A DNA stretch of 46,599 nt from Thermodesulfovibrionales bacterium (GCA_049700155.1 JBNAVX010000021.1:1-46599); one strand, 5' to 3'. Positions 4,156 to 45,699 are shown, counted from the first letter of the stretch. Made by a program: numbers and translations. Notes: generated by a model not told the origin, from the sequence alone.

Positions 4156-4252
4156 AAATCTTTTAAAATCAACTCTCTACAAACCCTTTTATTATCTCTA
4201 AAAAGGGGACATTAGGTTAAGTGGGGTTAATAGGTACAAAGAGGATTCTGGT

Positions 4253-8535: not shown

Positions 8536-8629
8536 GATGGATTAGGATTTTGGGGAGGTGAGAAAAAAATAAATAGATGATACCTTGGATATCAAAGGGA
8601 AATAATTGAGAATAATTGAAGGAGTTTCT

Positions 8630-9148: not shown

Positions 9149-9164
9149 AATAGGGGGAGATAAA

Positions 9165-10737: not shown

Positions 10738-10905
10738 ATGGCAGAGAACATTAGAACGTATAAAGATTTAAGAGTATTTCAACATGCAATGGAATCTGCT
10801 ATGAGGATTTTTGAAATTACAAAGACTTTCCCCGTTGAAGAACGGTATTCCCTTGTTAATCAGATAAAACGGTCATCAAAAAAGGAAGGTTACCATGGCT
10901 TTTGA
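10738..10905 (+). pseudogene. Truncated four-helix-bundle protein gene ('23S rRNA intervening-sequence protein' family), N-terminal ~47 aa retained
   Basis: MAENIRTYKDLRVFQHAMESAMRIFEITKTFPVEERYSLVNQIKRSS matches the family N-terminus (DLxVWQxA...FPxEERYxLxxQxRRAA). It then diverges and stops at 10903-10905, overlapping the next gene's start. Confidence 0.6.
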
Positions 10906-11608: not shown

Positions 11609-11635
11609 AAAACTGGAGTATATAAGGAGTTTCTG

Positions 11636-12247: not shown

Positions 12248-12250
12248 ATT

Positions 12251-15889: not shown

Positions 15890-15903
15890 ACTCAATTTTT
15901 GAA

Positions 15904-18287: not shown

Positions 18288-18303
18288 GAAAAGGAGAGGA
18301 GAT

Positions 18304-18768
18304 ATGGAAGGTGTAGAAATGATGGTCCAATTTCGTGATTTAGGAGCAATACTTGCTCTGGCATTGTCAGCTTTTGGTTCTGCCTTTGGAACTGGAATCT
18401 CTGGAATGGCAGCCATCGGAGCGTGGAAAAAAAATTTTATCCAGAATAAACCACCCTCTTTCTTATTGGTAGCCCTGACAGCTGCTCCCCTTACCCAGAC
18501 AATTTACGGTTTCATACTCATGCAAAATATGGTAGGAGCAATTGCAATTAAAGAACATTATCTCTGGGGCGTAGGAGCTTTTGCAGGAGCTGCTATTGGA
18601 CTGTCTGCATTCTGGCAGGGAAAGTGTGCAGCATGCGCTTGCGACTCAATGGGTGAGACTGGCAAGGGTTTTGGCAATTATATTGCTGTTTTAGGTATGA
18701 CCGAAACAGTGGCGCTTCTGGTGATGGTTTTTACTATCGTCGTCTTAAAGCGCCTCGCTGGAGCATAA
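18304..18768 (+). CDS. atpK: V-type ATPase proteolipid subunit K (double-hairpin c subunit) with Na+-binding signature
   Basis: 4 TM. PLTQTIYGF, FWQGK and MTETVAL align with Enterococcus hirae NtpK T64/Q65, Q110 and E139. Confidence 0.85.
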   Translation: MEGVEMMVQFRDLGAILALALSAFGSAFGTGISGMAAIGAWKKNFIQNKPPSFLLVALTAAPLTQTIYGFILMQNMVGAIAIKEHYLWGVGAFAGAAIGLSAFWQGKCAACACDSMGETGKGFGNYIAVLGMTETVALLVMVFTIVVLKRLAGA

Positions 18769-25350: not shown

Positions 25351-25600
25351 TAAAAAGCATTATCCAAAAAATTGTTTAAGAACCCTTCTATAACATTTTT
25401 AAAAAGCCTTTTTTCTTATCTATTGTGAATGCATAGCCTATTAATAATTTTATAATTTATTTTTATAATTTAAATTTTAACTTTTTATTGACTTTGTAAT
25501 AACATTAGATTATTCTACTATATCTCTTAACATGTTGCGAAACACATCTGAGATGTTGCAAATCAAAACAACATAAAGAAAAGGAGGAGAGAAGATTAAA

Positions 25601-26575
25601 ATGGAAAAGCGATTCTCTAAATTTTTGTTCATCTCCTTAGTCTTACTAGCTATAACATTAGTTGCTGTCACCCTATTTGCTACTACTGAACCATCAACTG
25701 TCCAGCAAACAGCAGAAAAGGGTTCAAAGATTCCTTGGTGGGCATGGTCAATTATACTCTTAGTTTTTACATTTATCCTTGGTATACTCGCTGTGCTTGG
25801 AGGGGTAGGAGGTGGTGTATTATTCGTTCCTCTTGTAGGGGGGTTCTTCCCTTTTCATATTGACTTCGTGAGAGGAGCCGGCTTAATTGTAGCCCTTTCA
25901 GGAGCACTTGCTGCAGGTCCTGGGCTTTTAAAAAGGAATCTTGCTAGCCTCCGTCTCGCCCTTCCTGTAGCCTTAATCGCTTCATCTTCAGCAATAATCG
26001 GTGCAATGATAGGACTTGCCCTTCCAGCACATATAGTTAATATACTTCTTGGTGCAACTATAATCGGTATTGTCATAATCATGGCTTCTGCAAAGAAGTC
26101 TGATTTTCCGAATGTCCCAAAGCCTGATAAACTATCTCAAACATTAGGCATAATGGGAATATACAGAGAGGTATCCCTTGGTAAAGATATTGAATGGAAT
26201 ATACATAGAACGGCTCCGGGATTAATCTTATTTATAGTTATCGGCATAATGGCAGGAATGTTCGGTCTTGGGGCTGGTTGGGCAAATGTCCCTGTCCTGA
26301 ACCTTCTCATGGGAGCGCCTCTTAAGATATCTGTTGCAACAAGTAAGTTCTTACTTTCCATAACTGACACATCTGCTGCATGGATTTATCTCAATTCAGG
26401 TGCCGTGCTTCCGATGATAGTTGTTCCATCAGTTGTGGGTATTATGCTTGGTTCTATCGTTGGTGTTAGGATCCTCGCGGTTGCAAAACCAAAGGCGATT
26501 AAATGGATAGTAATAGGACTTTTATTATTCGCAGGAGTCAGGGCTTTACTTAAAGGGCTCGGGATATGGAGATGA
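25601..26575 (+). CDS. TSUP (TauE/SafE, DUF81) family anion permease
   Basis: Polytopic. Motif GGVGGGVLFVPLV and a second-half repeat GLGAGWANVPVLNLL are typical of TauE/SafE. Confidence 0.75.
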   Translation: MEKRFSKFLFISLVLLAITLVAVTLFATTEPSTVQQTAEKGSKIPWWAWSIILLVFTFILGILAVLGGVGGGVLFVPLVGGFFPFHIDFVRGAGLIVALSGALAAGPGLLKRNLASLRLALPVALIASSSAIIGAMIGLALPAHIVNILLGATIIGIVIIMASAKKSDFPNVPKPDKLSQTLGIMGIYREVSLGKDIEWNIHRTAPGLILFIVIGIMAGMFGLGAGWANVPVLNLLMGAPLKISVATSKFLLSITDTSAAWIYLNSGAVLPMIVVPSVVGIMLGSIVGVRILAVAKPKAIKWIVIGLLLFAGVRALLKGLGIWR

Positions 26576-26585
26576 AAATAAATTT

Positions 26586-26613
26586 AAAACTCAAAAGTCA
26601 AAACTCAAAACTG
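26586..26613. repeat. Heptamer tandem repeat AAAACTC AAAAGTC AAAACTC AAAACTG
   Basis: Read directly; lies in the 85-nt spacer between the TSUP gene and the small membrane protein gene. Confidence 0.7.
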
Positions 26614-26660
26614 AGAATCTTATAAAAATTTTAAACTTTTTATGAAATCAGGAGGGTTTT

Positions 26661-27083
26661 ATGGCAGAAGAGGATAGAACAAAGGCATCAGGTGAACAGA
26701 TTATATATGCAAATATCTTAAATATAGGTATGTATTTAGGTCTTGCTATTATAATAGTAACCTTTATTATATACATCTTAGGGATATTACCATCATTTAT
26801 TCCACCTCAGGATATCCCCAAATACTGGACGATGAAATCTGGAGACTTTATACATAGCCTGCATGCCCCTACAGGATGGGATTGGTTAGCATTGGTTAAT
26901 AAGGGAGATTATCTGAATTTTATAGGGATAGCATTACTTGCAGGACTAACCATTCTGTGTTATATTTGTATATTGCCAATATTGTTAGGTAAAAAAGATT
27001 TTATCTATTTTGTTATTTCTCTCATTGAAGTAGCAGTGTTGGCATTGGCGGCAAGTGGGATATTAAAATCAGGAGGTCATTAA
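26661..27083 (+). CDS. Small integral membrane protein (about 4 TM), DUF1634-like (tentative)
   Basis: Hydrophobic segments. DUF1634 proteins are commonly adjacent to TSUP genes. RBS aggaggg. Confidence 0.5.
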   Translation: MAEEDRTKASGEQIIYANILNIGMYLGLAIIIVTFIIYILGILPSFIPPQDIPKYWTMKSGDFIHSLHAPTGWDWLALVNKGDYLNFIGIALLAGLTILCYICILPILLGKKDFIYFVISLIEVAVLALAASGILKSGGH

Positions 27084-27085
27084 TC

Positions 27086-27925
27086 ATGGCAAATAAGGTG
27101 TGTCCAATAATAGAAAGGCTTGAAAGGCTGCTTTTAGCCACAGATGGTTCAGAATACAGTGAAGGGGCTGTTAGGGAGGCTATTAATTTAGCAAAGACAT
27201 GTGGAAGTAAACTATATGCTATATCAGTTATAGAGGTCAATCCTGAGTTTGAAGCACTTGCACCTGGACTTGCTGAAAAGGAAGAAAAGCAGAGAAGTGA
27301 ACATCTCAAGACAGTTAAATCAAAGGCGTCTAAGGAAGGTGTTGATTGTGAGATTATTTTATATCGTGGCGGAGAACCTTATGAATCTATCGTTGACGAA
27401 GCAGCAAAGAACAAGGTAGGGATGATTGTCATGGGTAGATACGGTCGAACTGGTTTAGGAAGGGTTATGATGGGAAGCACGACTGCTAAAGTCATAGGCT
27501 ATACACTTTGCAGGGTCATGGTTGTTCCTAAAGAAGCAAAGCTAAACTTTGATAAGATACTTATTGCTACAGATGGTTCAATGCATAGCGAATTTGCAGC
27601 AAATGAGGCTATAAGCATCGCAAAACGCAGTGGTAGTACATTGATTGCTCTTTCTGTTGCAAAAAAAGATGAAAATCTTCCAGCTGCAAAGGAGTGTGTT
27701 GATGCAGTAAAAAAAGATGCTGAAAAAGAAGGCATAAAAGTAAAAACTATAATCAGAAAGGGGATACCTCACGAGGTTATAGTAAAAACAGGTGCTCAGG
27801 AAGATGTTGGTCTTATAGTTATTGGAAGCCACGGTAGGACAGGCATAACAAAACTACTCATGGGGAGCGTAACAGAGAGAGTAATAGGACATGCAGAGAG
27901 CCCTGTCCTGGTTTGGAAACTTTAA
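27086..27925 (+). CDS. Tandem universal stress protein (2 x UspA)
   Basis: MGRYGRTGLGRVMMGSTTAKV and IGSHGRTGITKLLMGSVTERV. Its N-terminus is nearly identical in pattern to that of 4253-5158. Confidence 0.85.
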   Translation: MANKVCPIIERLERLLLATDGSEYSEGAVREAINLAKTCGSKLYAISVIEVNPEFEALAPGLAEKEEKQRSEHLKTVKSKASKEGVDCEIILYRGGEPYESIVDEAAKNKVGMIVMGRYGRTGLGRVMMGSTTAKVIGYTLCRVMVVPKEAKLNFDKILIATDGSMHSEFAANEAISIAKRSGSTLIALSVAKKDENLPAAKECVDAVKKDAEKEGIKVKTIIRKGIPHEVIVKTGAQEDVGLIVIGSHGRTGITKLLMGSVTERVIGHAESPVLVWKL

Positions 27926-28130: not shown

Positions 28131-28427
28131 ATGGCCACTGAATTCAGAAGGAAACATAAAAGGCAATATCATGTCGGCTTCGTAAGATACCACCTAAATG
28201 TCTTAGATAATAAGAGGTTGAAGAAAGTTCAGGGAACCGGTGTTTCTGTAGATATAAGTGAAGGAGGGCTTGGCTTGATAACTCAATATCCACTCGAGGA
28301 AGGACATTTTTTACTCTTTGAAGATGGGAATTTGATAGATGATATTAAACTCAAGGCGTCTATCGTCAGATGGACACAGGAACTTGAAGACAAAACTTAT
28401 CGTGTGGGATTGGAGTTTGTAGAATAA
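28131..28427 (+). CDS. Stand-alone PilZ-domain protein (c-di-GMP receptor type)
   Basis: RRKHKR (RxxxR) and DISEGGLG (DxSxxG) motifs at the canonical spacing. Confidence 0.75.
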   Translation: MATEFRRKHKRQYHVGFVRYHLNVLDNKRLKKVQGTGVSVDISEGGLGLITQYPLEEGHFLLFEDGNLIDDIKLKASIVRWTQELEDKTYRVGLEFVE

Positions 28428-28438
28428 ATCTTTATTGT

Positions 28439-29800
28439 TCATTCTCCTTCTAATCCATATTTTTTCAACTTTCTCCACAGTGATACTCTATCAATTTTAA
28501 GTATCTGTGAAGCAAGTGTTTTATTGCCACCTACTTCCTTTAAGACCCAGTTAATGTAGGACTTTTCCTGTTCCTCAAGTGAAGGATATCTACCCTCCTT
28601 TTTTCTGAAGGTCCTTATGCTCAATTGTCTGAGGTCCTCAGGAAGATGAGCTACCTCAATCATGTCTCCAGTTGTGAGGGCAACACCTCTTTCGATGATA
28701 TTTTCCAGTTCTCTAACATTTCCCGGGAAATCGTAGTTTACCAGAATAGCCATTACTTCAGGGGAGATCTCCTTTACATCTTTTTTCATCAATAATGCAT
28801 ACTTTTTCAGGAAATAGTAACCTAAGAGAGGTATATCGTCTTTTCTTTCTGAAAGGGGTGGAATATGTAATGAAACCACATTTAATCTGAAATATAAATC
28901 CTGTCTTAATCGTCCAGCCTTCACCGCATCCTGTATGTCTCTATTTGTTGCTGCAATAAACCTGACATCCACCTTTATAGGTTCTGTCCCCCCTACCCTT
29001 AAGACCTCTTTTTCCTGAATAACCCTTAAAAGCTTTACCTGCATAGAAGGAGGCATTTCTGTTATCTCATCAAGAAAGAGAGTGCCTTTAGATGCAGTTT
29101 CTATTAATCCTTTTTTCATAGCTACTGCACCAGTAAATGCACCTTTTTCATGCCCGAAAAGCTCACTTGAAAGGAGTTCCTCTGTAAAGGCACCACAATT
29201 TATGGCAAAGAATGGACCCCCAGCACGCAGACTATTGAAATGTATAAATCTCGCAAACAGCTCCTTACCTGTTCCACTCTCTCCGCTTATGAGGACATTA
29301 CACTCTGTTGGCGCTATCTGCCTTGCTGTATCAAGGAGCTTCTGCATCTTTATATCCTGTGTAATTATCTTAACCTTGCCCTGAAATTTTTCTATCTGCT
29401 CCCTGAGTTCAATGTTCTCTCTCTTTAACCTTACCTTTTCAACTGCCTCCTTAACGACCTTTCTTACCTCTTCCAGTTTAAAAGGCTTCGCTACATAATA
29501 GAATGCACCGTGTTTCATGGTCTCAACAGCAGACTCAAGAGTGGCATAACCTGTTATCATTATCACCTCTGTGTCAGGATATAGCTCACGGCATTTTTTC
29601 AGTATCTGCATCCCGTCCACCTTCTCCATCCTCAAGTCTGTCAGTACAACATCAAATTGGTGTTCTTCTATGAGTCTGAGTGCAGTAGGTCCACTTTCTG
29701 TTCCAATAACATCATAACCCTCTTTTCTCATAACATGTTCGAGGTTTTTAAGTGCAATCTTTTCATCATCAACGATTAATATCTTTGCTGTAACCTCCAT
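28439..29800 (-). CDS. Sigma54-dependent response regulator (NtrC family: REC + AAA+ + Fis-type HTH)
   Basis: REC (VDDE, LTDLRM, KPF), Walker A GESGTGKE, GAFTGA loop, Walker B FLDEI, C-terminal HTH (NKTLASQILKIDRVSLWRKLKKYG). Start overlaps the HK stop by 1 nt. Confidence 0.92.
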   Translation of the reverse strand: MEVTAKILIVDDEKIALKNLEHVMRKEGYDVIGTESGPTALRLIEEHQFDVVLTDLRMEKVDGMQILKKCRELYPDTEVIMITGYATLESAVETMKHGAFYYVAKPFKLEEVRKVVKEAVEKVRLKRENIELREQIEKFQGKVKIITQDIKMQKLLDTARQIAPTECNVLISGESGTGKELFARFIHFNSLRAGGPFFAINCGAFTEELLSSELFGHEKGAFTGAVAMKKGLIETASKGTLFLDEITEMPPSMQVKLLRVIQEKEVLRVGGTEPIKVDVRFIAATNRDIQDAVKAGRLRQDLYFRLNVVSLHIPPLSERKDDIPLLGYYFLKKYALLMKKDVKEISPEVMAILVNYDFPGNVRELENIIERGVALTTGDMIEVAHLPEDLRQLSIRTFRKKEGRYPSLEEQEKSYINWVLKEVGGNKTLASQILKIDRVSLWRKLKKYGLEGE

Positions 29801-31344
29801 TATTTCTCCTTTTTTATTGGTAATCTTATCAGGAATGAAGTCCCTTTACCAACTTCGCTATAGACTCCTATACAGCCATTATTTTCTTCAATAATCTCCT
29901 CAACAACATAGAGACCGAGTCCAGAGCCCTTTCTGATATCAATTCTTGAGCTGGAATCTTTTTCAGAATCCTTTGTTGTGAAAAAAGGTTCAAATATCCT
30001 CGGTAAAATCTCAGGGGGAATCCCTACACCTGTATCTTTTATCTCAATGTCAATTGTATCTTTACCAATAGGACACTCACCTGTACATGTGTAACGATAT
30101 TCTGGATATTCACAGACCTTTTCATATGTCTCATTAACTGTTCCTTCTGCCTTCTTTGTAAAATGTTTCTTTGCCATAATGAATACCTTTCCTTCATCAG
30201 TAATTGCTTCAATAGCATTTTTTATGAGATTTAAGAAAGCCTGCTGAATCCTCTGTTTATCAGCAAAAATGTATATATCATCCGCTATATCAACGTTGAT
30301 TTCGATTCCTGATGGTATTTCACCTTTGATAAATAGGATCGTCTCTTCAATAAGTTTTTTAAGCGGTAGGCTCTCTTTTTTGAATTCCCTGTGTCTTGAG
30401 AATTCTAATAAAGAACGGACAATATCACGCGCCCTATCTGTCTGTGTGGAAATCTGTGTAAGCAGTTCTTTTTTATAATCTGTATCAGCCTCTTCAAGCT
30501 CTTCTGCGAGTATCTGGCAGGATGATGATATATTTGCTAACGGGTTATTCAATTCATGTGCAACGCCAGAAAGTAATGTCCCAAGTGAGGCGAGCTTCTC
30601 TCTCTGTATAAGGTGTTTCTGTCTTAATTCAAGTTCACTCAACATCTTATTGAATGCATCTGTTAAAGAAACGATCTCTCTGTCTTTTGAATTGATTGAC
30701 ACAGTTCTGAGCTTCCTTTCTTCTATTAGTTTCATCTGTTCTTCCAATGCTTGAAGAGGTTTTTCTACCATCCTCGACAGAATTTGACCGATTACAATCC
30801 CTAAAAGTGATAAAGAGATAATCAGGAGAACAAGTATCCTCTGTGTTCTCGTGAGTAATTCCTGTAATCTCTTCCTTTCAGTCTTTGACAAATCTTCAGA
30901 AACTGTCACTATCTCCTTGCCTTTTTCTCTTATTAACTTCTCCAGAGCTATTCGCTTATCAATGTTATTCTTATTAGTTATAGCGAATTCAGTCATCAAT
31001 GACTTATATTCATCTAAACCCCTTTTTATGAAATAAAGCTGTGGGGCTATAGAAAGCCTCTTAAATCTATCAATATGTTGATTAAGTATTTCCTGAAGCT
31101 TGTTGACATAATCCATATTTTCCCTGTAGTCCTCATCTTTGTTATATAAAAAGAAGTTCTTCTCGAACCGCCTTATCTCAAGAACGCCGTCAAATAGTTC
31201 CGAGATAACATCTCCAAATTGGACCTTCCTCTCCATATACCAGAGTTCTGTAAGTGTGAAGATAGTGATTAATATTAGGACCAATATCCCGCCGTAATAA
31301 CCAAGAATAATCTTCTGCCTCAAGCTTGAGGGAAATTTAAACAT
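29800..31344 (-). CDS. Membrane sensor histidine kinase (HK3) with helical extracytoplasmic sensor and a Cys-containing insertion in the ATPase domain
   Basis: Two TM segments flank a helical region of about 130 aa. H-box VAHELNNPLA, N-box LIKNAIEA, G1 DTGVGI, G2 GSGLGL. About 25 extra residues lie between N and G1, including CEYPEYRYTCTGEC (30073-30114). Confidence 0.85.
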   Translation of the reverse strand: MFKFPSSLRQKIILGYYGGILVLILITIFTLTELWYMERKVQFGDVISELFDGVLEIRRFEKNFFLYNKDEDYRENMDYVNKLQEILNQHIDRFKRLSIAPQLYFIKRGLDEYKSLMTEFAITNKNNIDKRIALEKLIREKGKEIVTVSEDLSKTERKRLQELLTRTQRILVLLIISLSLLGIVIGQILSRMVEKPLQALEEQMKLIEERKLRTVSINSKDREIVSLTDAFNKMLSELELRQKHLIQREKLASLGTLLSGVAHELNNPLANISSSCQILAEELEEADTDYKKELLTQISTQTDRARDIVRSLLEFSRHREFKKESLPLKKLIEETILFIKGEIPSGIEINVDIADDIYIFADKQRIQQAFLNLIKNAIEAITDEGKVFIMAKKHFTKKAEGTVNETYEKVCEYPEYRYTCTGECPIGKDTIDIEIKDTGVGIPPEILPRIFEPFFTTKDSEKDSSSRIDIRKGSGLGLYVVEEIIEENNGCIGVYSEVGKGTSFLIRLPIKKEK

Positions 31345-31579
31345 ATATTAATTTTAAAAGTTATCATTGCAAAAAGCAATGTTTGACGATTCTTTTGCAA
31401 CATTAAACGATAAATAGTTTGTAATCTTTTATTGATGCGTCTCTATCAATAATCTATAAGTAAGATAAACTTTGTATTCAATTCTATGTTGAATTATGCA
31501 TCAATTAGTCTTTTTTATTAGATGACCCTCTTTTTAAAAATATCATGAAAAAACAATATCTTACGAATATAAAGGTGCA

Positions 31580-31595
31580 TGGCATGGAATATGTT
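31580..31595 (+). promoter_or_regulatory. Sigma54-like -24/-12 element TGGCAT-N5-ATGT (weak -12)
   Basis: TGGCATGGAATATGTT lies 33-48 nt upstream of ATG 31628. GG is present but the -12 reads GT rather than GC. Confidence 0.3.
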
Positions 31596-31627
31596 TAAGT
31601 TAAATACAAAAAGGAGGTGTGTAAGGA

Positions 31628-31807
31628 ATGAAAAAGCTGATTAAAAAATTAGAAAGGCTATTTTCAGCAGCAGCCTTTGCAGAGGCTGGCGAATACGATA
31701 CTGCAAGGGAGATTCTAAGAGAAGAAGAAAGACCTCAGAAGAGAGAAAGGGTCACTCCATCTACAAGGCCAAGAAAGGAGCTAAGGGCACCAGGCATAAA
31801 AAGGTAA
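31628..31807 (+). CDS. Unannotated 59-aa protein with an 'FAEAGE-x2-TAREI' N-terminal module and a basic Pro/Arg-rich tail
   Basis: Strong RBS aaaaggaggtg with 8-nt spacing. MKKLIKKLERLFSAAAFAEAGEYDTAREILREEERPQKRERVTPSTRPRKELRAPGIKR. The N-terminal ~30 aa are paralogous to the N-terminus of 34126-34602. Confidence 0.6.
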   Translation: MKKLIKKLERLFSAAAFAEAGEYDTAREILREEERPQKRERVTPSTRPRKELRAPGIKR

Positions 31808-31833
31808 AACTAAGGTAAAACTAAAGTAAAAGG
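31801..31833. repeat. Tandem 11-mer AAGGTAAAACT AAGGTAAAACT AAAGTAAAAGG
   Basis: Read directly. It spans the small-ORF stop codon and most of the spacer before the Lon start. Confidence 0.7.
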
Positions 31834-31845
31834 CGCTAAATAAAA

Positions 31846-33954
31846 ATGAATATCTTTAAGAGATCAGAAGATAAGCTACAGGCTGCAACGATTGAGGAGA
31901 TAAGGCAGGTAATTGCCTCATCTAAGATACCACCTTATGTCCAGCAGGTCGCAAAAAAGGAGCTTGATATGCTATCGAAGACAAGCCCTACTGTAGCGGA
32001 ATATGCGATAGGGCTTGCATACATTGAATATCTTGTCAGTTTACCATGGGATAAGAAGACTGAGGACTGCCTCGATCTTGAGAGGGCTGAAAGAATCCTG
32101 AACGAAAGGCACTATGGATTGCAGATGGTTAAGGAGAGAATCTTAGAGCACCTATCAGTAAAGATCTTAATAGCAAATAAAAAACCAAGAATTCTGGTTG
32201 TAGATGATGAAGAAGTTGCAAGAAAAAACTTAGAACATATATTGAAGAAAGAAAACTATACAGTTGTCACAGCAGCGAATGGAGCAGAAGCTATTAAGAA
32301 GATGGAGGCATCTAATTTTGATGTGATTCTTACTGATATCAGAATGGAGAAGGTTAACGGGATTGAGGTTCTTGAAAGGGCTAAAAACATATGCCCCGAG
32401 ACCAAGGTTATCATGATTACTGGTTATGCATCAGTGGACTCTGCTGTTGAGACTATGAAGAAAGGTGCATTTCATTATATTGAAAAGCCCTTTAAGGTTG
32501 ATACAGTGCGCTCAGTTGTAAAAAATGCAATTGAGAAGAAGCTGTCAACTATCTCTACAAAAGGCTCTGTATTATGCTTTGCAGGTCCACCGGGAACAGG
32601 GAAGACCTCACTGGGTAAGTCTATTTCTGATGCACTTGGGAGAAAGTTTGCGAGGATCTCTCTTGCAGGTATGAAAGATGAGGCTGAGATCAGAGGACAT
32701 AGAAGGACATATGCAGGTGCAATGCCCGGGCGTATTATTGAAGAGATTAGACGTGTAGAATCTTCTAATCCTGTCTTCATGCTCGATGAGATTGATAAGA
32801 TAGGACAGGACTTTAAAGGTGATTCTGCCTCTGCACTGCTTGAAGTACTCGACCCTGAACAGAATCAAAATTTTCTCGACCACTATCTTGATGTACCTTT
32901 TGACTTATCTGGCGTGATGTTTATTGTAACGGCAAATATTGCTGACAATATTCATGATGCACTCAGAGACCGAATGGAAGTAATCGAACTATCAGGCTAT
33001 ACAGAGGATGAAAAGATAAAGATAGGCTTACAGTATCTTGTTCCGAAGCAGATCCGTGAACAGGGACTATCAGATTATCCACCTGAATTTACTCCTGAGG
33101 CTATATTAAAGATCGTTCATGAATATACACGAGAAGCAGGCATCCGCAATCTTGAGAGGCAGATCGCCAACATCTGTAGAAAGATTGCCACAGAATATGT
33201 CCATCATAAAAAGAATATTCAAAATATTAAAGTGACACCCCGCGAGGTAGAGAAATATCTTGGAACGAGAAAATACTACAGAGAGGTTGCTGATGAGGAG
33301 AATAGGATTGGTGTAACTACTGGTCTTGTATGGACAGAAACAGGTGGAGAGATTATCTTTGTAGAGGCTGCGAAGATGAAGGGAAATAAACAATTAATAC
33401 TGACTGGTTCCCTGGGGAATGTAATGTGTGAATCAGCACATGCAGCATTGAGTTATATAAGGAGCAATGCATCAGTCTTCAACATCCCTGACAACTTCTT
33501 TGAGAACCATGACATCCATATCCATGTACCTGCTGGAGCCATACCAAAAGACGGACCATCTTCAGGGACTACGATCGCACTCGCTCTTATTTCACTTCTA
33601 ACCGGGGTACCTGCGAGGAGAGATGTAGCTATATCAGGTGAGATGACATTGAGCGGAAGGATACTTCCTGTTGGAGGTATCAAAGAGAAGTTGCTGGCTG
33701 CAAGACGGGCAGGAGTAAAAACAGTAGTCTTCCCTCTTAAGAATAAGGTAGATATTGAAAGTCTTCCTGAAGATGTAAAAAGAGGACTTGATATAAGACT
33801 TGTTGATAGAATCGAGGAGATCGTTCCTATTGTTCTAATGAATAAATCAAAGTCTGATATACAGGATAGGCAGAGGTCAAACCTTTTTCATTCAGAGGGA
33901 ATTGCAATCTGCAACATGAATACCCTTTCATGTAGCAGTATTAAAAAAGCTTGA
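31846..33954 (+). CDS. LonA-type protease lacking the N-terminal LON domain, with a receiver (REC) domain inserted into the AAA+ module
   Basis: LPW motif region, HYGLQMVKERILEHLSV, then REC (nt about 32188-32541; Asp codon 32335-32337). This is followed by GPPGTGKTS, DEAEIRGHRRTYAGAMPGRI, FMLDEIDK, and the protease domain PKDGPSSG...GGIKEKLLAA. Confidence 0.85.
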   Translation: MNIFKRSEDKLQAATIEEIRQVIASSKIPPYVQQVAKKELDMLSKTSPTVAEYAIGLAYIEYLVSLPWDKKTEDCLDLERAERILNERHYGLQMVKERILEHLSVKILIANKKPRILVVDDEEVARKNLEHILKKENYTVVTAANGAEAIKKMEASNFDVILTDIRMEKVNGIEVLERAKNICPETKVIMITGYASVDSAVETMKKGAFHYIEKPFKVDTVRSVVKNAIEKKLSTISTKGSVLCFAGPPGTGKTSLGKSISDALGRKFARISLAGMKDEAEIRGHRRTYAGAMPGRIIEEIRRVESSNPVFMLDEIDKIGQDFKGDSASALLEVLDPEQNQNFLDHYLDVPFDLSGVMFIVTANIADNIHDALRDRMEVIELSGYTEDEKIKIGLQYLVPKQIREQGLSDYPPEFTPEAILKIVHEYTREAGIRNLERQIANICRKIATEYVHHKKNIQNIKVTPREVEKYLGTRKYYREVADEENRIGVTTGLVWTETGGEIIFVEAAKMKGNKQLILTGSLGNVMCESAHAALSYIRSNASVFNIPDNFFENHDIHIHVPAGAIPKDGPSSGTTIALALISLLTGVPARRDVAISGEMTLSGRILPVGGIKEKLLAARRAGVKTVVFPLKNKVDIESLPEDVKRGLDIRLVDRIEEIVPIVLMNKSKSDIQDRQRSNLFHSEGIAICNMNTLSCSSIKKA

Positions 33955-34059: not shown

Positions 34060-34075
34060 TGGTATAAGAATTGTT
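34060..34075 (+). promoter_or_regulatory. Sigma54-like -24/-12 element TGGTAT-N5-TTGT (imperfect)
   Basis: TGGTATAAGAATTGTT lies 51-66 nt upstream of ATG 34126 and has the same deviation pattern as 31580-31595. Confidence 0.3.
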
Positions 34076-34125: not shown

Positions 34126-34602
34126 ATGAAAAAGGAGAATCTAAAAGACTTGATAAAAAAGATAGAAGACATAATGACTGCCTCTACCTTTGCAGAGGCA
34201 GGTGAGTTTGAGACTGCAAGGGAAATAATAAAAGGCGAAAGAAGGGTACTCCTTGCTATGAGAGAAGGAGAGGTAGAAAGAAAAGCCTTAACATATGCAT
34301 TGAATACATGTAAGAGAATCGGGGCTGATATGGATATCTTATATATCTCAACGATTGATGCAAGCGAAAATCCGATTCTAAAAGAATTTTTTTCAGAGCT
34401 TCAGAGAGAGGGGATAAATTATCGGCTGTTTATGAAGACTGGTCGTTTGAGAGAAGAGATTAAGCACTACACAGACTCTGAGAGTAATATCAAATTTGTC
34501 GTTGTTGAGTCACCTGCTGCTGAACGCTGGAATAGAGAGGAGGGGCTCTCTAAGATACTCGAAAAGATTAAGTGTCCGCTGGTAGTGGTAGATATCCCCT
34601 AA
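34126..34602 (+). CDS. FAEAGE-module protein fused to a USP-like (adenine-nucleotide alpha-hydrolase-fold) domain lacking the ATP-binding motif
   Basis: The N-terminus KDLIKKIEDIMTASTFAEAGEFETAREII parallels the 31628 ORF. The remainder follows a USP-like beta-alpha pattern (VLLAM...DILYIS...FVVVES...CPLVVV) without G-x2-G-x9-G(S/T). Confidence 0.6.
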   Translation: MKKENLKDLIKKIEDIMTASTFAEAGEFETAREIIKGERRVLLAMREGEVERKALTYALNTCKRIGADMDILYISTIDASENPILKEFFSELQREGINYRLFMKTGRLREEIKHYTDSESNIKFVVVESPAAERWNREEGLSKILEKIKCPLVVVDIP

Positions 34603-34663
34603 AATTTAAGGTCTGTTCAAATAAATTAAGTTAAAAAACTAACTATCAAAAAGGAGGTAACAA

Positions 34664-34915
34664 ATGGCAAAAGAAGGTGTCAAGAAGAAGAAACCTGTTG
34701 GAAAGATGCTCTTATTTGGGATTGTTACAGTAACCCTCTATGTGCTCCTGTTATCAAATCAGGATTTTATTAACAAAAATTTTGTGCGAGGTGGATTTTA
34801 TGCCCTGCTACCTATAGCAACGGCATTTATCTTCTCGTTCTTCCACGGGACATTTACAGGGAGTTTCTGGACTGTCCTCGGTGTTGAGGCAAAAAAGAAG
34901 AGGGAGGTGAAATAA
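34664..34915 (+). CDS. Small membrane protein (2 TM, Lys-rich termini)
   Basis: Strong RBS aaaaggagg. Its stop abuts the start of the TSUP gene, suggesting translational coupling. Confidence 0.6.
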   Translation: MAKEGVKKKKPVGKMLLFGIVTVTLYVLLLSNQDFINKNFVRGGFYALLPIATAFIFSFFHGTFTGSFWTVLGVEAKKKREVK

Positions 34916-34916
34916 T

Positions 34917-36011
34917 ATGCATGATGTAGTAAGTCAGGTAAGCAATTTTATCGACCTTACATGGATGAACATATTGTATCTATTCTTTGTGGGTTTTGTC
35001 GGTGGTCTTGTGAGCGGATTTATCGGTTCAGGAGGTGCTTTTGTGCTCACTCCTGGAATGATGAGTATGGGTGTTCCTGGTCTTGTTGCAGTAGCAAGCA
35101 ACATGTGCCATAAGTTTCCAAAGGCACTCGTTGGTGCTATAAAACGTGCTAAATATGGTCAGGTTGATGTCAAGCTTGGATTGATTATGGGTGCCTCAGC
35201 CGAGGCAGGAGTCCTGTATGGAGCCCATATTCAGGAAAGTATCAAGAGGGCATGGGGAGATGCGGGTTCTAACCTTTATGTAAGTGTGGCATTCGTTGTG
35301 GTCCTGGCAATAGTTGGAGGTTATGTATTACGTGATGCCTTCAAAAGCAAAAAAACCGGAGATAGCTCTGAAGAAGAAAAGGTTACCAAGATTGCCCGCT
35401 GGGTGCAGTCTATACATATACCAGGAACAATGGTCTATTTTAAGAGTCTCAAGGCAAAGGTATCAGTTCTTCTTACCATACCGCTTGGTTTTGCAACAGG
35501 CATGCTTGCTGCCACTATAGCAGTTGGTGGTTTTATAGGTGTGCCAGCCATGATTTACGTACTTGGTGCACCAAGCCTTATGGCATCTGCAACAGAGCTT
35601 GTAATAGCATTTGTTATGGGTATGGGAGGTTCATTTAAATATGCACTGCATGGTTTTGTTGATATCCGGCTTTCAATGATTATACTTGCAGGCTCGCTCT
35701 TCGGGATCCAATTAGGCGCTATCGGTACAACATATGTAAAACCATTTATGATAAAGCTTGTCATGGGGCTTATCATGGTCATCGTCCTTTTCAGTCGTGG
35801 GTTGATGGTTCCTGTATATCTCTCACAACTTGGAGTAATCCAGACCCTGAGTGAAACTACAACTAAATTGTTAAAGACCACAAGCTTTGCTATAATGATG
35901 ATCGCCTTACTTACAGGAGCTATTGTGGTTTTAACTGCATTATGGAAAGGTATCAGGGAAGAAAAGTTGCAGCATGCTACAAAAGAGGTCTTAGAGCATG
36001 GGAAGATATAG
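34917..36011 (+). CDS. TSUP (TauE/SafE)-like permease, long form
   Basis: Polytopic. GFIGSGGAFVLTPGM and the second-half VGGFIGVPAMIYVLG resemble TauE repeats, with a hydrophilic central loop. Confidence 0.65.
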   Translation: MHDVVSQVSNFIDLTWMNILYLFFVGFVGGLVSGFIGSGGAFVLTPGMMSMGVPGLVAVASNMCHKFPKALVGAIKRAKYGQVDVKLGLIMGASAEAGVLYGAHIQESIKRAWGDAGSNLYVSVAFVVVLAIVGGYVLRDAFKSKKTGDSSEEEKVTKIARWVQSIHIPGTMVYFKSLKAKVSVLLTIPLGFATGMLAATIAVGGFIGVPAMIYVLGAPSLMASATELVIAFVMGMGGSFKYALHGFVDIRLSMIILAGSLFGIQLGAIGTTYVKPFMIKLVMGLIMVIVLFSRGLMVPVYLSQLGVIQTLSETTTKLLKTTSFAIMMIALLTGAIVVLTALWKGIREEKLQHATKEVLEHGKI

Positions 36012-36852
36012 AAAGATACTCGTTGCAATAGACGGCTCTGGATCAAGCAAGAATGCACTCAGACAGGCGATAAAGCTGGCAAACAGTGAGGAATGCTGGA
36101 TTACTGTCGTATCTGTAATCCCATCTTACACAGGAGACCTTTCAGCAACATTTATAGGTGATATTAGAAAGGCTATGGCTGAGCCATGTGAAAGGGCACT
36201 CTCTGAAGCAGAAGAGATTGCTAAGGCTGAAAGGGCATTAATAAAGACTGTATGTGAAGAAGGGGAGATATACGAGAGGATTGTTGACCTTGCAGAAGCA
36301 GAGAATTGCGATCTTATAGTAATGGGAAGGAAAGGTCTCTCAAAGATAGAAAGGGCATTCATGGGAAGTGTAACAGCAAGGGTTATCGGACACAGCCAGA
36401 GAGATGTCCTTGTAGTTCCTGAGAATACTGCCATAGGTTGGAAGTGTATCTTCCTTAATACTGATGGTTCTAAATATAGTGAGGCTGCAACAGAGAGTGC
36501 GATAAACTTTGCAAAATCTTATGGTGGGGAGCTGATGGTCCTTTCAGTAGTCGAGGTAACAGAAGAATTTATTACACGTGCCCCTGGAATGCTTGAAGAA
36601 ATGGTTAAGAAGGCAAAGGGTTTTGTAGATGATGTGAAGAAGAAGGCAGAAAATTCTAATATTAAGACCACGACATTCGTGAGAGAAGGTGAGGCTTATA
36701 AGGTAATAACAGACCTTGCAAAAGAGCAGAAGGCTGATATTATCTTTATGGGAAGCCATGGAAGAACAGGACTTAAAAGACTTCTCATGGGTAGCGTAAC
36801 AGCAAAGGTTATAGGATATGCACCCTGCCCCGTACTTGTAGTCAGACCTTAA
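35998..36852 (+). CDS. Tandem universal stress protein (2 x UspA)
   Basis: ILVAIDGSGSS, MGRKGLSKIERAFMGSVTARV, MGSHGRTGLKRLLMGSVTAKV. Overlaps the end of the TSUP gene by 14 nt. Confidence 0.85.
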   Translation: MGRYRKILVAIDGSGSSKNALRQAIKLANSEECWITVVSVIPSYTGDLSATFIGDIRKAMAEPCERALSEAEEIAKAERALIKTVCEEGEIYERIVDLAEAENCDLIVMGRKGLSKIERAFMGSVTARVIGHSQRDVLVVPENTAIGWKCIFLNTDGSKYSEAATESAINFAKSYGGELMVLSVVEVTEEFITRAPGMLEEMVKKAKGFVDDVKKKAENSNIKTTTFVREGEAYKVITDLAKEQKADIIFMGSHGRTGLKRLLMGSVTAKVIGYAPCPVLVVRP

Positions 36853-36868: not shown

Positions 36869-36901
36869 AGCCCCTGAATATATTCAGGGGCTCTTTATTT
36901 T
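36869..36901 (+). terminator. Rho-independent terminator
   Basis: Perfect palindrome AGCCCCTGAATA/TATTCAGGGGCT followed by a T-rich tract (CTTTATTTT). Confidence 0.85.
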
Positions 36902-44619: not shown

Positions 44620-45507
44620 TTATGTATAAGCATATGAAGGTTGAGAGATGTCTGAGACTATCTCCCAACAATCTCGATGTAAAAGAAGTTTTTTCAGGAA
44701 TCTGTGATTTGTTGAATGTCCTGCCTTGCTGGCAAAGATGTGGCCATAGATTGGTAGACCTATTAATGAAAGGTCTCCGATGAGGTCAAGTATTTTATGA
44801 CGAACAAACTCATCTTTGAATCTGAGCCCTGAAGAATTTAATATGCCATCCCTTCCGAGAATTATAGCATTTTCAATTGAACCCCCTTTCGCATATCCAT
44901 TTGCTCTGAGGTATTCTACGTCTTTAAGAAAGCCGAATGTCCTCGCTGGAGCGATCTCCTTTATAAAGCTCTCTTCTGTAAGATCCAAACTCAGATTCTG
45001 TTCTCCAAGTAAATGGTGGTTAAAGTGGATTCTATATGTTACTCTTCTTCCATTATATGGAAAGACGGCAATCTCAGAATTTCCGTCAGAAAAGATTATC
45101 GGTCTTGTTATCCTTAAATAAGGTCTCTTCTTCCCCTGTTTTGCAATACCAGCCTGCAAAATGATTTTTGTAAGCTCTATTGAGCTTCCATCAAGTATAG
45201 GAATCTCTTGCCCTGTAACCTCTATTATGACATTGTCTATGCCAAGGCCTGACAAGGCAGCGAGAATATGTTCCACAGTCCTGATTTTTACTCCATTGTA
45301 TCCAATAGTGGTAGAAAAAGCAGTATCAATAACAGAATTAACAGATGCCTTTATTGATATTTTCTTATCACCGCCTCTGGTGGTCTTTGTAAATATGATC
45401 CCACTATCCCTCTGGGCAGGCTTGAGATATACCTTTGAATATTGACCTGTATGTAATCCTATACCTTCAAAACTGACTTCTTGTTTTATTGTCTTCTGTA
45501 AACGCAT
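44620..45507 (-). CDS. lpxC: UDP-3-O-acyl-N-acetylglucosamine deacetylase
   Basis: GIGLHTG, TVEHILAALSGLGIDN, EIPILDGS, ARTFGF, GGSIENAII, DEFVRHKILDLIGDL, GHSTN. Confidence 0.93.
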   Translation of the reverse strand: MRLQKTIKQEVSFEGIGLHTGQYSKVYLKPAQRDSGIIFTKTTRGGDKKISIKASVNSVIDTAFSTTIGYNGVKIRTVEHILAALSGLGIDNVIIEVTGQEIPILDGSSIELTKIILQAGIAKQGKKRPYLRITRPIIFSDGNSEIAVFPYNGRRVTYRIHFNHHLLGEQNLSLDLTEESFIKEIAPARTFGFLKDVEYLRANGYAKGGSIENAIILGRDGILNSSGLRFKDEFVRHKILDLIGDLSLIGLPIYGHIFASKAGHSTNHRFLKKLLLHRDCWEIVSDISQPSYAYT

Positions 45508-45699
45508 TATTATTTTAAAGTCATATTATATATTTAATTTATTCCAGAGAATTTTCTTAAGCAAATAAGATGCCAACAATACTTTTAATATCAATTAAAC
45601 TTAACCCTTTAAAAATGGCTTTTTATAGATATTTATTAAAATATTTTAGGGTAGAAGTGTTGTTTATTGAGCATAGACTGAGTAATATTTAACACAGAG

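What the first reader, a model, noticed from the sequence alone, without database searches (positions are those of the whole stretch)
34126..36852. Four-gene cassette: FAEAGE/USP-like protein, 83-aa membrane protein, long TSUP permease, tandem USP
The genes are tightly packed (34915/34917 abut, and 35998 overlaps 36011). They are bounded by a sigma54-like element and a perfect-stem terminator (36869-36901). The same logic of TSUP permease plus small membrane partner plus tandem USP recurs at 25601-27925 with non-identical parts. TSUP substrates are mostly unknown, with sulfite, sulfonates and other anions proposed. Hard-wired pairing with nucleotide-binding USP proteins and a small membrane subunit suggests a regulated multi-subunit anion transporter that has not been characterised.
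Basis: partly seen in the sequence, partly recalled or inferred. Interest (0 to 1): 0.65.

Follow-up and report, generated by a model that had tools for sequence, protein, structure and literature searches.

The report
Sigma-54 stress-regulated TSUP transporter operon
The four genes are real and travel together in hundreds of genomes, but they are the end of a larger, already mapped stress regulon (a sensor kinase, a sigma-54 activator and a phosphorylation-controlled Lon protease driving a TSUP membrane transporter with small partner proteins) whose transported substrate is still unknown.

Summary
The ORFs, the 1-nt P2/TSUP spacer, the 14-nt TSUP/USP overlap, the terminator and the second cassette are all as described.

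The adjacency is strongly conserved. P2->TSUP is found in 80/80 Nitrospirota loci and 59/60 distant metagenome loci. TSUP->tandem USP is found in 71/74 near loci but only 17/35 distant ones, where a cytidylate-kinase-like protein can take its place.

The 83-aa protein belongs to an unnamed family, not DUF1634. In other lineages it is fused to the USP-fold protein, to the FAEAGE helix, or to both, so these parts probably work as one unit.

The unit is wider than the finding. It also includes a 59-aa FAEAGE ORF (31628-31807), a receiver-Lon protease, a histidine kinase and an NtrC-type activator, with a sigma-54 promoter and enhancer palindromes at 31365-31595.

This architecture, promoter type (TTGT at -12) and enhancer motif (TGTTGC-N5-GCAACA) match the Desulfovibrio vulgaris DVU3298-DVU3305 "three-component general stress" system (Rajeev 2011; Kazakov 2015). 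So it is a new member of a known but functionally unsolved module.

The best reading is a stress-induced heteromeric TSUP permease gated by nucleotide-sensing USPs and reset by Lon. No evidence identifies the substrate.

The parts
28439..29800 (-). NtrC-type sigma-54 enhancer-binding response regulator (receiver + Sigma54_activat + HTH_8)
   Evidence: Pfam. Orthologues at 77-89% identity lie next to the cassette in 35 of 80 Nitrospirota loci. In distant loci the count is 23/28. Counterpart of DVU3305.
29800..31344 (-). Membrane histidine kinase (2 TM, ~140-aa periplasmic helical sensor, HAMP, HisKA, HATPase_c)
   Evidence: Pfam. Co-located with the NtrC gene in related loci. The sensor domain has no recognisable relative. 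Counterpart of DVU3304.
31365..31381 (.). Enhancer-like palindrome CATTGCAAAAAGCAATG (core TTGC-N5-GCAA)
   Evidence: Conserved in L009, L035, L069 and Dissulfurispira. TTGC-N5-GCAA occurs 62 times in the 80 loci against about 12 expected, and the sites cluster upstream of the FAEAGE genes. Same type as the DVU3305 sites TGTTGC-N5-GCAACA.
31487..31503 (.). Second enhancer-like site TGTTGAATTATGCATCA
   Evidence: Two mismatches to the DVU3305 consensus. It sits in an invariant block, GTTG...TGCA, of alignment A5.
31580..31595 (+). Sigma-54-type promoter TGGCATGGAATATGTT, 48 nt upstream of the 59-aa ORF
   Evidence: TGGCA-G--A--TG is invariant in five taxa. A TGGCAC-N5-(T/A)TG(T/A/C) site lies 45-70 nt upstream of the small ORF in about 20 loci. 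The DVU3302 promoter, CTTGGCACGGGGCTTGTTA at -56, also has TTGT at -12.
31628..31807 (+). 59-aa ORF: FAEAGE helix (MKKLIKKLERLFSAAAFAEAGEYDTAREIL) plus a basic tail
   Evidence: 57% identical to P1 residues 6-40, E=2e-12. 34 homologous small ORFs were found in related loci. The helix is fused to P2 in at least 11 representative proteins.
31846..33954 (+). Receiver-domain Lon protease (RR-Lon)
   Evidence: Pfam Response_reg + AAA + Lon_lid + Lon_C. It is adjacent in 26 of 80 near loci. In distant loci it lies divergently upstream in 45/46. Counterpart of DVU3303.
33900..33916 (.). Enhancer-like site AATTGCAATCTGCAACA inside the 3' end of the Lon gene
   Evidence: Two mismatches to TGTTGC-N5-GCAACA. 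It lies about 145 nt upstream of the 34060 element.
34060..34075 (+).
   Evidence: The closest relative, L012, has TGGCACAAAAATTGTT at the aligned position. It is not conserved in L035 or L069, so it is probably a lineage-specific internal promoter.
34126..34602 (+). P1: N-terminal FAEAGE helix plus a USP-fold domain without the ATP-binding motif
   Evidence: Model pLDDT 84. The top Foldseek hits are all USPs, including TeaD 3hgm. There is no G-x2-G-x9-G[ST] motif. It is present at full length in 49/79 loci. It is fused to P2 in P0365.
34664..34915 (+). P2: 83-aa two-helix membrane hairpin of an unnamed family (invariant Q33, P50, H61, E75; motif FSFxHGxFTGxFWxVLGxE)
   Evidence: No Pfam or NCBIfam match. 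The alignment is A1. 350 species genomes carry a relative. 319 clusters at 50% identity match the profile at E<=1e-3.
34917..36011 (+). Long TSUP (TauE/SafE) permease with an extra C-terminal TM at about residues 324-342
   Evidence: Pfam TauE covers residues 22-291. Identity is 73-92% across Nitrospirota loci and 57-70% in distant loci. It follows P2 in 80/80 and 59/60 loci.
35998..36852 (+). Tandem universal stress protein; both domains carry the ATP-binding motif
   Evidence: Pfam. The motifs are GRKGLSKIERAFMGS and GSHGRTGLKRLLMGS. Both are kept in 57 of 67 orthologues. It is adjacent in 71/74 near loci.
36869..36901 (+). Intrinsic terminator
25601..27925 (+). Paralogous cassette: TSUP (324 aa), 140-aa divergent DUF1634-like membrane protein, tandem USP (279 aa)
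   Evidence: The same trio lies near cassette 1 in L031 and L071, inverted in L070, and partly in L060. In L021 the USP is missing.

Best explanation
The finding is the distal part of one sigma-54 operon.

**Proposed mechanism.**
- A membrane histidine kinase senses an unknown envelope or periplasmic signal. It phosphorylates two response regulators.
- The NtrC-type activator binds TTGC-N5-GCAA enhancers and fires the sigma-54 promoter at 31580. A weaker copy of the promoter lies at 34060.
- The transcript encodes a 59-aa FAEAGE peptide, a receiver-Lon protease, P1, P2, a long TSUP permease and a tandem ATP-binding USP. It ends at the terminator at 36869.
- P2, a 2-TM hairpin, is an obligate membrane partner of this TSUP clade.
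- P1 and the FAEAGE helix dock on the cytoplasmic side of P2. In other lineages they are the same polypeptide.
- The tandem USP couples transport to adenine-nucleotide status, as TeaD does for TeaABC.
- The phospho-activated Lon probably removes one of the soluble regulators to switch or reset the system.

**Shown here.** The gene content, the conservation of order and spacing, the fusions, the USP fold of P1, the ATP motifs, the conserved promoter and enhancer elements, and in-situ transcripts in relatives.

**Taken from the literature on the D. vulgaris counterpart.** Activator binding, and induction at high pH, heat shock and stationary phase.

**Inferred.** The physical complex, USP gating, the Lon targets and the direction of transport. 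The substrate is unknown. A small anion is the family default, not a result.
For: **Synteny.**
- P2->TSUP is found in 80/80 loci, with a 1-nt spacer in 61/80. TSUP->USP is found in 71/74.
- In a distant clade, TSUP follows P2 in 59/60 loci. RR-Lon is upstream in 45/46, and NtrC is nearby in 23/28.

**Fusions.**
- P0365 is a P1-P2 fusion followed by TauE and Usp.
- 41 of the 150 best P2 relatives are at least 200 aa long with P2 at the C-terminus. 17 of these match the P1 profile.
- At least 11 relatives are FAEAGE-helix-P2 fusions.

**Domain evidence.**
- P1 has a USP fold.
- Both ATP motifs are present in USPa and in 57/67 orthologues.

**Promoter and enhancers.** They are conserved across taxa. 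No + strand terminator lies between 31628 and 36869.

**Transcription.** Metatranscriptome contigs cover the cassette of relatives of L022. Some span the P2/TSUP and TSUP/USP junctions, and the flanks have zero depth.

**D. vulgaris counterpart.**
- DVU3305 binds the DVU3302/3303 intergenic region.
- The operon is listed as three hypotheticals, a TSUP and a USP.
- Its sigma-54 promoter has TTGT at -12, and its enhancer sites are TGTTGC-N5-GCAACA.
- It is induced by stress, and orthologues with RR-Lon are reported in Thermodesulfovibrio.
Against: - There is no direct evidence for a protein complex, for transport, or for any substrate.
- The TSUP model was too poor to use (pLDDT 48).
- Orthology to the DVU genes rests on architecture, annotation and cis-elements, not on sequence comparison. 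No D. vulgaris sequence was reachable.
- The window promoters lack the canonical -12 GC.
- The tandem USP is replaced or absent in about half of the distant loci. P1 is full-length in only 49/79 near loci. These regulators are therefore exchangeable.
- The metatranscriptome evidence comes from contigs of mixed related populations, and DNA carry-over cannot be excluded.
- The window carries three tandem USP genes in 46 kb, so some USP adjacency could reflect abundance.
Confidence: 0.6

Rival explanations
1. The TSUP/P2 pair is the main sulfate (or sulfite/thiosulfate) carrier of dissimilatory sulfur metabolism in Thermodesulfovibrionia. ATP-sensing USPs match uptake to the ATP cost of sulfate activation.
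For: - The TSUP is unusually conserved, at 73-92% identity.
- Marietou 2018 found no SulP or DASS and eight TSUPs in T. yellowstonii. The paper raised TSUPs as candidate sulfate carriers.
- A TauE and its partner membrane protein rise during thiosulfate disproportionation in Dissulfuribacter.
Against: - No sulfur-metabolism gene is a conserved neighbour in any of about 170 loci.
- This window has its own DASS transporter.
- The D. vulgaris counterpart is induced by high pH, heat and stationary phase and is co-regulated with kdp. That is a stress pattern, not a respiratory one.
- Marietou's conserved candidate clade is represented by DVU2958, not by DVU3299.
Confidence: 0.15
2. The membrane proteins act mainly as a co-sensor (transceptor) that reports flux or envelope state to the histidine kinase. 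Transport itself is secondary.
For: - The HK, activator and RR-Lon are bound to P2-TSUP more constantly than any metabolic gene.
- The kinase's sensor domain has no recognisable ligand-binding family.
- From general knowledge, transporter-kinase co-sensing is established elsewhere, for example DctA-DcuS and BceAB-BceS.
Against: - The TSUP is a full-length permease under strong purifying selection.
- The regulators are encoded divergently or upstream, like an ordinary inducible transporter.
- No fusion links P2 or the TSUP to the kinase among the 150 best relatives.
Confidence: 0.1
3. P2 is an insertion or assembly chaperone for the TSUP (the AtpI-like label that JGI gives some homologues), not a stoichiometric subunit. 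The USP-fold proteins are general stress proteins that merely share the promoter.
For: - JGI names several homologues 'F0F1-type ATP synthase assembly protein I'.
- USP genes are abundant in this genome.
- The USP is replaceable in distant loci.
Against: - No Pfam or NCBIfam AtpI-type model matches P2, even at E<=10.
- The 1-nt spacing in 61/80 loci and the overlapping TSUP/USP genes suggest coupled translation.
- Recurrent fusion of USP-fold and FAEAGE parts to P2 ties them physically to the membrane unit.
Confidence: 0.1
4. The adjacency is a local accident of this genome with no functional link.
For: None beyond the high density of USP genes in the window.
Against: Order, strand and spacing are conserved in 80 species-level genomes and 80 metagenome loci from a distant clade.
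Confidence: 0.01

Closest known systems
[quoted passage not shown] 2011, PMC3333781; Kazakov et al. 2015, PMC4641369)
   Same: - The parts list matches: HK (DVU3304), sigma-54 NtrC-type RR (DVU3305) and receiver-Lon (DVU3303).
- The target operon is three small hypotheticals + a TSUP transporter (DVU3299) + a USP (DVU3298).
- The sigma-54 promoter lies about 50 nt upstream of the first small gene and has TTGT at -12.
- There are two TGTTGC-N5-GCAACA enhancers about 150 and 230 nt upstream.
- The authors already noted orthologues with the Lon-RR in Thermodesulfovibrio.
   Different: - In the window the Lon gene lies inside the target transcript, between the FAEAGE peptide and P1, instead of with the regulators.
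- The window has a second, degenerate promoter copy before P1.
- Sequence orthology of the three hypotheticals could not be checked here.
- The papers do not describe the P2 family, the FAEAGE motif, the USP fold of P1 or their fusions.
TSUP (TauE/SafE, TC 2.A.102) permeases with the DUF1634 membrane partner
   Same: - A TSUP permease is encoded next to a small integral membrane protein.
- The window's second cassette looks like this pairing (weak full-length DUF1634 match).
- The pairing is annotated in other genomes as 'transmembrane protein co-occurring with sulfite exporter TauE/SafE'.
   Different: - P2 of the finding is unrelated to the 140-aa protein and matches no DUF1634 model.
- P2 precedes the TSUP rather than following it.
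- P2 is a 2-TM hairpin that is often fused to cytoplasmic USP-fold or FAEAGE parts.
TeaD, the USP encoded in the TeaABC TRAP-transporter operon of Halomonas elongata (PDB 3hgm)
   Same: - A USP-fold protein is encoded in a transporter operon.
- TeaD is among the top structural matches of P1.
- From general knowledge, TeaD binds ATP and damps transport. That is the model used here for the tandem USP.
   Different: - The transporter family differs (TRAP versus TSUP).
- TeaD has a single USP domain.
- P1 itself lacks the ATP motif.
- Two distinct USP-type proteins are present here, plus a protease.
Other sigma-54-controlled TSUP operons of Desulfovibrionales (e.g. DVU2956 -> DVU2957-2964; DVU0110/DVUA0057 -> DVU0132-0133)
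   Same: An enhancer-binding protein is encoded next to a sigma-54 promoter that drives a TSUP operon of unknown substrate. Nine such TSUP or PSE operons are listed for D. vulgaris.
   Different: The activators are different (single-component EBPs), no Lon-RR is present, and the gene content differs.

Membership tests
TSUP / TauE-SafE permease (Pfam PF01925) | Match to the family model above the curated threshold over its full length | tested here: met
   126 bits against a 32.6-bit cut-off; profile positions 1-234 of 237. The same holds for the second TSUP, at 115 bits.
TSUP / TauE-SafE permease (Pfam PF01925) | 4+4 transmembrane repeat topology | tested here: inconclusive
   The hydropathy profile shows multiple TM segments plus an extra C-terminal one. 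The AlphaFold model was too poor to count helices (pLDDT 48).
TSUP / TauE-SafE permease (Pfam PF01925) | Transport of a sulfur-containing anion | not testable with these tools
   No solved relative was found by sequence. No conserved metabolic neighbour was found.
Universal stress protein, ATP-binding class | Pfam Usp above threshold, and G-x2-G-x9-G[ST] in each domain | tested here: met
   For 35998-36852: 221 bits, two domains. Motifs start at residues 110 and 252, and both are kept in 57/67 orthologues.
Universal stress protein (P1, 34126-34602) | Pfam Usp above threshold | tested here: not met
   16.2 bits against a 24-bit cut-off.
Universal stress protein (P1, 34126-34602) | USP alpha/beta fold | tested here: met
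   Model pLDDT 84. The 29 best Foldseek PDB hits are all USPs at probability 1.0, with TM about 0.5-0.66.
Universal stress protein (P1, 34126-34602) | ATP-binding motif G-x2-G-x9-G[ST] | tested here: not met
   The motif is absent in P1 and not conserved in the 34-sequence alignment.
DUF1634 (PF07843), the usual small partner of TauE | Match to the family model | tested here: not met
   The 83-aa P2 gives no match even at E<=10. It shows no similarity to the 140-aa protein of cassette 2.
DUF1634 (PF07843), for the 140-aa protein 26661-27083 | Match to the family model above threshold | tested here: inconclusive
   The alignment is full-length (profile 2-100 of 102), but scores are below the 27.5-bit cut-off. 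E=0.13 in the window, and 0.0027 and 0.033 in two orthologues.
AtpI / AtpZ small membrane proteins (JGI label for P2 homologues) | Match to a curated AtpI-type model | tested here: not met
   No Pfam or NCBIfam hit.
DVU3305 three-component regulon (D. vulgaris) | HK + sigma-54 NtrC-type RR + receiver-Lon next to the target operon | tested here: met
   Window 28439-33954. The arrangement recurs in near and distant loci. It is described for DVU3303-3305.
DVU3305 three-component regulon (D. vulgaris) | Target operon of three small hypotheticals, a TSUP and a USP | tested here: met
   The window encodes the 59-aa peptide, P1, P2, the TSUP and the USP. Kazakov's supplement lists DVU3302-3298 in the same way.
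DVU3305 three-component regulon (D. vulgaris) | Enhancer motif TGTTGC-N5-GCAACA upstream of a sigma-54 promoter | tested here: met
   The window has sites at 31487 (2 mismatches), 31365 (core palindrome) and 33900 (2 mismatches). Core palindromes are enriched about 5-fold and are position-specific in 80 loci.
DVU3305 three-component regulon (D. vulgaris) | Sequence orthology of each protein to DVU3298-3305 | not testable with these tools
   No D. vulgaris sequence could be fetched.
Sigma-54 promoter | GG at -24 and GC at -12 with fixed spacing | tested here: inconclusive
   GG is present, and TGGCA is invariant across taxa. The -12 reads TGT in both window sites. The published DVU3302 promoter also reads TTGT. 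A canonical site does exist elsewhere in the window, at 45561.

The most novel reading that the evidence does not exclude
P2, with its FAEAGE/USP-fold appendages, is a dedicated gating subunit of one TSUP clade. The same kinase that induces the operon also activates a receiver-Lon protease. That protease degrades the soluble gate (P1 or the 59-aa peptide). The transporter would then be controlled by a built-in transcription-plus-proteolysis switch. A dedicated phospho-regulated protease of this kind has not been described for a secondary transporter.
Probability: 0.2. Interest if true: 0.7.

Novelty: new member of a known kind. Interest (0 to 1): 0.45.

Why it matters
TSUP is one of the largest transporter families with almost no assigned substrates. 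This clade comes with an unusually complete, conserved control kit: a kinase, a sigma-54 activator, a receiver-Lon, two USP-type proteins and a private 2-TM partner. The kit spans at least Nitrospirota and Desulfobacterota.

The link to the D. vulgaris DVU3298-3305 locus makes the system testable in a genetically tractable organism. Mutants, fitness data and stress transcriptomes already exist for that organism.

The work here also gives the three "hypothetical proteins" a concrete structural reading and a prediction of who touches whom.

Tried and rejected
- **TSUP structure.** The AlphaFold model from 31 sequences was unusable (pLDDT 48.5), because all listed homologues are at least 80% identical. 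No fold search was run on it.
- **Solved structures.** A PDB sequence search found nothing for the TSUP. For P1 it found only a marginal USP hit.
- **RNA evidence.** No RNA run holds the window itself; it comes from a hot-spring metagenome with DNA runs only.
- **Kinase sensor domain.** It has no informative PDB or family match.
- **Other family scans.** Rfam and tRNA scans of the window were empty. PADLOC found no defence-system link for the cassette proteins.
- **Literature.** The held library has no paper that discusses the FAEAGE motif (the one hit is unrelated), none on DUF1634, and no TSUP structure. One search was badly targeted and gave nothing.
- **Ideas considered and dropped.**
  - P2 as DUF1634 or AtpI: no model match.
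  - The 34060 element as the main promoter: it is conserved only in the closest relatives.
  - DVU2956-2958 as the counterpart: it has a single-component EBP and no Lon, so DVU3298-3305 fits better.


Full report

Yes. The ORF list gives P1 at 34126-34602 (158 aa) and P2 at 34664-34915 (83 aa). It gives the TSUP at 34917-36011 (364 aa) and the USP at 35998-36852 (284 aa).

P2 and the TSUP are separated by one base. The TSUP and the USP overlap by 14 bases.

Pfam confirms TauE for the permease (E=2e-36) and a two-domain Usp (E=7e-66). It gives only a sub-threshold Usp match for P1 (E=0.016) and nothing for P2. NCBIfam agrees.

The terminator at 36869-36892 has a 10-bp stem with 6 G-C pairs, followed by a T-run.

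The second cassette at 25601-27925 has a TauE permease (29% identical to the first). It also has a 140-aa membrane protein and a tandem USP (38% identical).

It has the -24 GG but TGT instead of TGC at -12.

**2. Is the adjacency conserved?**

The 83-aa protein has about 225 close relatives, nearly all from Nitrospirota or Thermodesulfovibrionales MAGs. P1 has about 257, from the same groups and from the isolate Dissulfurispira thermophila.

A scan of one genome per species found 350 genomes with a P2 relative. The 80 best loci were analysed by tblastn:
- P2 is followed by the TSUP in 80/80 loci, with a 1-nt spacer in 61.
- The TSUP is followed by the tandem USP in 71 of the 74 loci that extend far enough.
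- Full-length P1 is present in 49/79 loci.
- The TSUP is 73-92% identical across these loci.

**3. The unit is larger than the finding.**

Upstream of P1 in many loci lies a 55-65-aa ORF. It consists of the N-terminal helix of P1 plus a basic tail (34 cases).

The window has this ORF at 31628-31807: MKKLIKKLERLFSAAAFAEAGEYDTAREIL.... It is 57% identical to P1 residues 6-40.

Three more genes belong to the neighbourhood: a receiver-domain Lon protease (31846-33954), a histidine kinase (29800-31344, minus strand) and an NtrC-type sigma-54 activator (28439-29800, minus strand). Orthologues of these sit beside the cassette in the long contigs examined.

The intergenic region in front of the 59-aa ORF carries three elements:
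- TGGCATGGAATATGT at 31580.
- A palindrome, CATTGCAAAAAGCAATG, at 31365.
- A second site, TGTTGAATTATGCATCA, at 31487.

All three fall in blocks that are conserved in four other taxa, including Dissulfurispira.

A TGGCAC-N5-(T/A)TG site lies 45-70 nt upstream of the small ORF in about 20 loci. TTGC-N5-GCAA palindromes are about five-fold enriched in the 80 loci and pile up just upstream of the FAEAGE genes.

No + strand terminator separates 31628 from 36869.

The 34060 element has a matching TGGCACAAAAATTGTT in the closest relative only. It has an enhancer-like AATTGCAATCTGCAACA about 145 nt upstream. I read it as a lineage-specific internal copy of the promoter.

**4. What are the small proteins?**

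*P1.* An AlphaFold model (pLDDT 84) has two N-terminal helices and a five-stranded alpha/beta domain. Its best 29 PDB matches are all universal stress proteins, including TeaD. P1 and its 33 aligned relatives lack the G-x2-G-x9-G[ST] ATP motif.

*Tandem USP.* It has the ATP motif in both domains, as do 57 of 67 orthologues.

*P2.* It is a hairpin with basic ends and invariant Q33, P50, H61 and E75. It has no curated family.

A profile search of 1.84 billion representatives found 319 clusters related to P2. Among the 150 best:
- 41 are at least 200 aa long with P2 at the C-terminus.
- 17 of those match the P1 profile.
- At least 11 shorter ones are FAEAGE-helix-P2 fusions.
- One (P0365) is a complete P1-P2 fusion.

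These fusions argue that P1, the FAEAGE helix and P2 act together at the cytoplasmic face of the membrane.

**5. Does the module hold in distant lineages?**

Five fusion genes were looked up, and each was followed by a 356-398-aa TauE gene.

A metagenome scan with the fusion alignment gave 80 loci, analysed:
- The TSUP (57-70% identical) follows in 59/60 loci.
- A receiver-Lon lies divergently upstream in 45/46 loci.
- An NtrC orthologue is nearby in 23/28 loci.
- The gene after the TSUP is a tandem USP in 17/35 loci, a cytidylate-kinase-like protein (PF13189) in 10/35, and neither in 8/35.

One fusion cluster is labelled Desulfobaccales.

The constant core is therefore kinase + activator + receiver-Lon + (USP-fold/FAEAGE)-P2 + TSUP.

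**6. Expression.**

The window comes from a hot-spring metagenome with no RNA runs.

For the related locus L022, contigs from four metatranscriptomes cover P1 through the USP. Several span the P2/TSUP and TSUP/USP junctions, and the flanks have zero depth. This fits co-transcription in situ.

Two caveats apply. The contigs come from mixed related populations, and DNA carry-over cannot be excluded.

**7. Comparison with what is known.**

Rajeev et al. [quoted passage not shown] Its main points:
- Its parts are DVU3305 (sigma-54 response regulator), DVU3304 (kinase) and DVU3303 (response regulator with a Lon protease).
- DVU3305 binds between DVU3302 and DVU3303.
- The genes rise at high pH, heat shock and stationary phase.
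- Orthologues with the Lon-RR and a conserved site occur in Thermodesulfovibrio yellowstonii.

Their supplement lists DVU3302, DVU3301 and DVU3300 as hypothetical, DVU3299 as a membrane protein and DVU3298 as a UspA protein.

Kazakov et al. 2015 add the following:
- DVU3299 is called a TSUP family transporter.
- The sigma-54 promoter is CTTGGCACGGGGCTTGTTA at -56.
- The enhancer sites are TGTTGCATTATGCAGCA at -227 and TGTTGCATATCGCAACA at -146.

The window has the same gene count and order. It also has the same unusual TTGT at -12, and the same palindrome type at comparable distances.

I therefore file the finding as the Nitrospirota version of this module. Sequence orthology to the DVU proteins could not be tested here, and I mark it as inferred.

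Sigma-54 control of TSUP operons in general is also documented.

No paper in the held library discusses the FAEAGE motif (the single hit for the string is unrelated), and none discusses the fold of the hypotheticals. I found none that names the P2 family or the fusions.

**8. The second cassette.**

Its 140-aa protein and two of its orthologues give weak but full-length matches to DUF1634. This is the known TauE partner, annotated elsewhere as [quoted passage not shown]. It is unrelated to P2.

Dissulfurispira has a third version: a USP-like protein with an internal FAEDGE helix, a TauE, an Alph_Pro_TM protein and USPs. This version lies behind a canonical TGGCATCTATCTTGCT promoter and a second kinase/activator pair.

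**9. Mechanism and confidence.**

The best-supported reading (0.6) is a stress-induced heteromeric TSUP permease with three control layers:
- Its synthesis is set by the kinase/activator pair.
- Its activity is tuned by USP-type nucleotide sensors.
- Its regulators are probably cleared by the receiver-Lon.

The complex, the gating and the Lon targets are inferences.

The substrate is open. No sulfur-metabolism gene is a conserved neighbour. The window has its own DASS carrier. The D. vulgaris expression pattern is that of stress, not respiration.

The specific "dissimilatory sulfate carrier" idea gets 0.15. A transceptor role gets 0.1, and an assembly-factor role for P2 gets 0.1.

**10. Verdict.**

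The system is a new member of a known, experimentally mapped but functionally unsolved module. It comes with new descriptive detail (the P2 family, the FAEAGE helix, the fusions, the exchangeable third partner) and clear experiments to run.

Interest is moderate, at 0.45.

Noticed in passing
window 31846-33954: The Lon protease has a response-regulator receiver domain (residues 116-225) in place of most of the usual N-terminal substrate domain. In this lineage its gene lies inside the target transcript, between the FAEAGE peptide and P1. In most other loci it is divergent.
   Followed up: partly
window 3733-5158: A third tandem USP (4253-5158, both ATP motifs) lies next to a CBS-domain protein (3733-4155). 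A near-perfect DVU3305-type palindrome, AGTTGCTTTTGGCAACA (1 mismatch), lies at 4353-4369, inside the 5' part of the USP ORF.
   Followed up: no
window 8606-10688: A CBS-domain protein (8606-9148) lies directly upstream of a DASS sodium:anion symporter (9165-10688). This is another pairing of an adenine-nucleotide-sensing domain with an anion carrier.
   Followed up: no
window 45561-45575 (-), upstream of 44620-45507: A canonical sigma-54 promoter, TGGCATCTTATTTGC, lies about 55 nt upstream of lpxC. D. vulgaris also has sigma-54 control of lpxC through DVU2934.
   Followed up: partly
window 10895-18768: An LCIB-type beta-carbonic anhydrase (10895-11608) is followed by what looks like a V/A-type ATPase operon (A, B, D and c subunits; 11636-18768).
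   Followed up: no
window 25533-25570: Two TGTTGC half-sites (25533 and 25554) lie within 70 nt upstream of the second TSUP gene. No full palindrome or sigma-54 site was found there.
   Followed up: no
L087 14937-18471 (Dissulfurispira thermophila): This is a third cassette type. It has a 165-aa USP-like protein with the FAEDGE helix in the middle of the chain, a TauE (310 aa), an Alph_Pro_TM protein (PF09608), a tandem USP and a further USP. It lies behind a canonical sigma-54 promoter and its own kinase/activator pair.
   Followed up: partly
L091 3696-4493; L092 4612-5421; 10 of 35 loci among L094-L173: In the distant clade a Cytidylate_kin2-like protein (PF13189), not a USP, follows the TSUP. 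One nucleotide-binding partner seems to have been swapped for another.
   Followed up: partly
alignment A6 (USP-like-P2 fusion proteins): There is an invariant methionine exactly where the P2 part begins. The C-terminal tail carries a conserved RPRA...NPFH motif. The methionine may mark an internal start or a recent gene fusion.
   Followed up: no
L001 1451-1963 versus window 34126-34602: The gene caller gives P1 170 aa on the near-identical public contig, and several relatives have that N-terminal extension. In the window an in-frame stop leaves 158 aa.
   Followed up: partly
window 28131-28427: A stand-alone 98-aa PilZ-domain protein lies between the second cassette and the activator gene. 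In Dissulfurispira a PilZ-HD protein occupies the place next to the activator.
   Followed up: no
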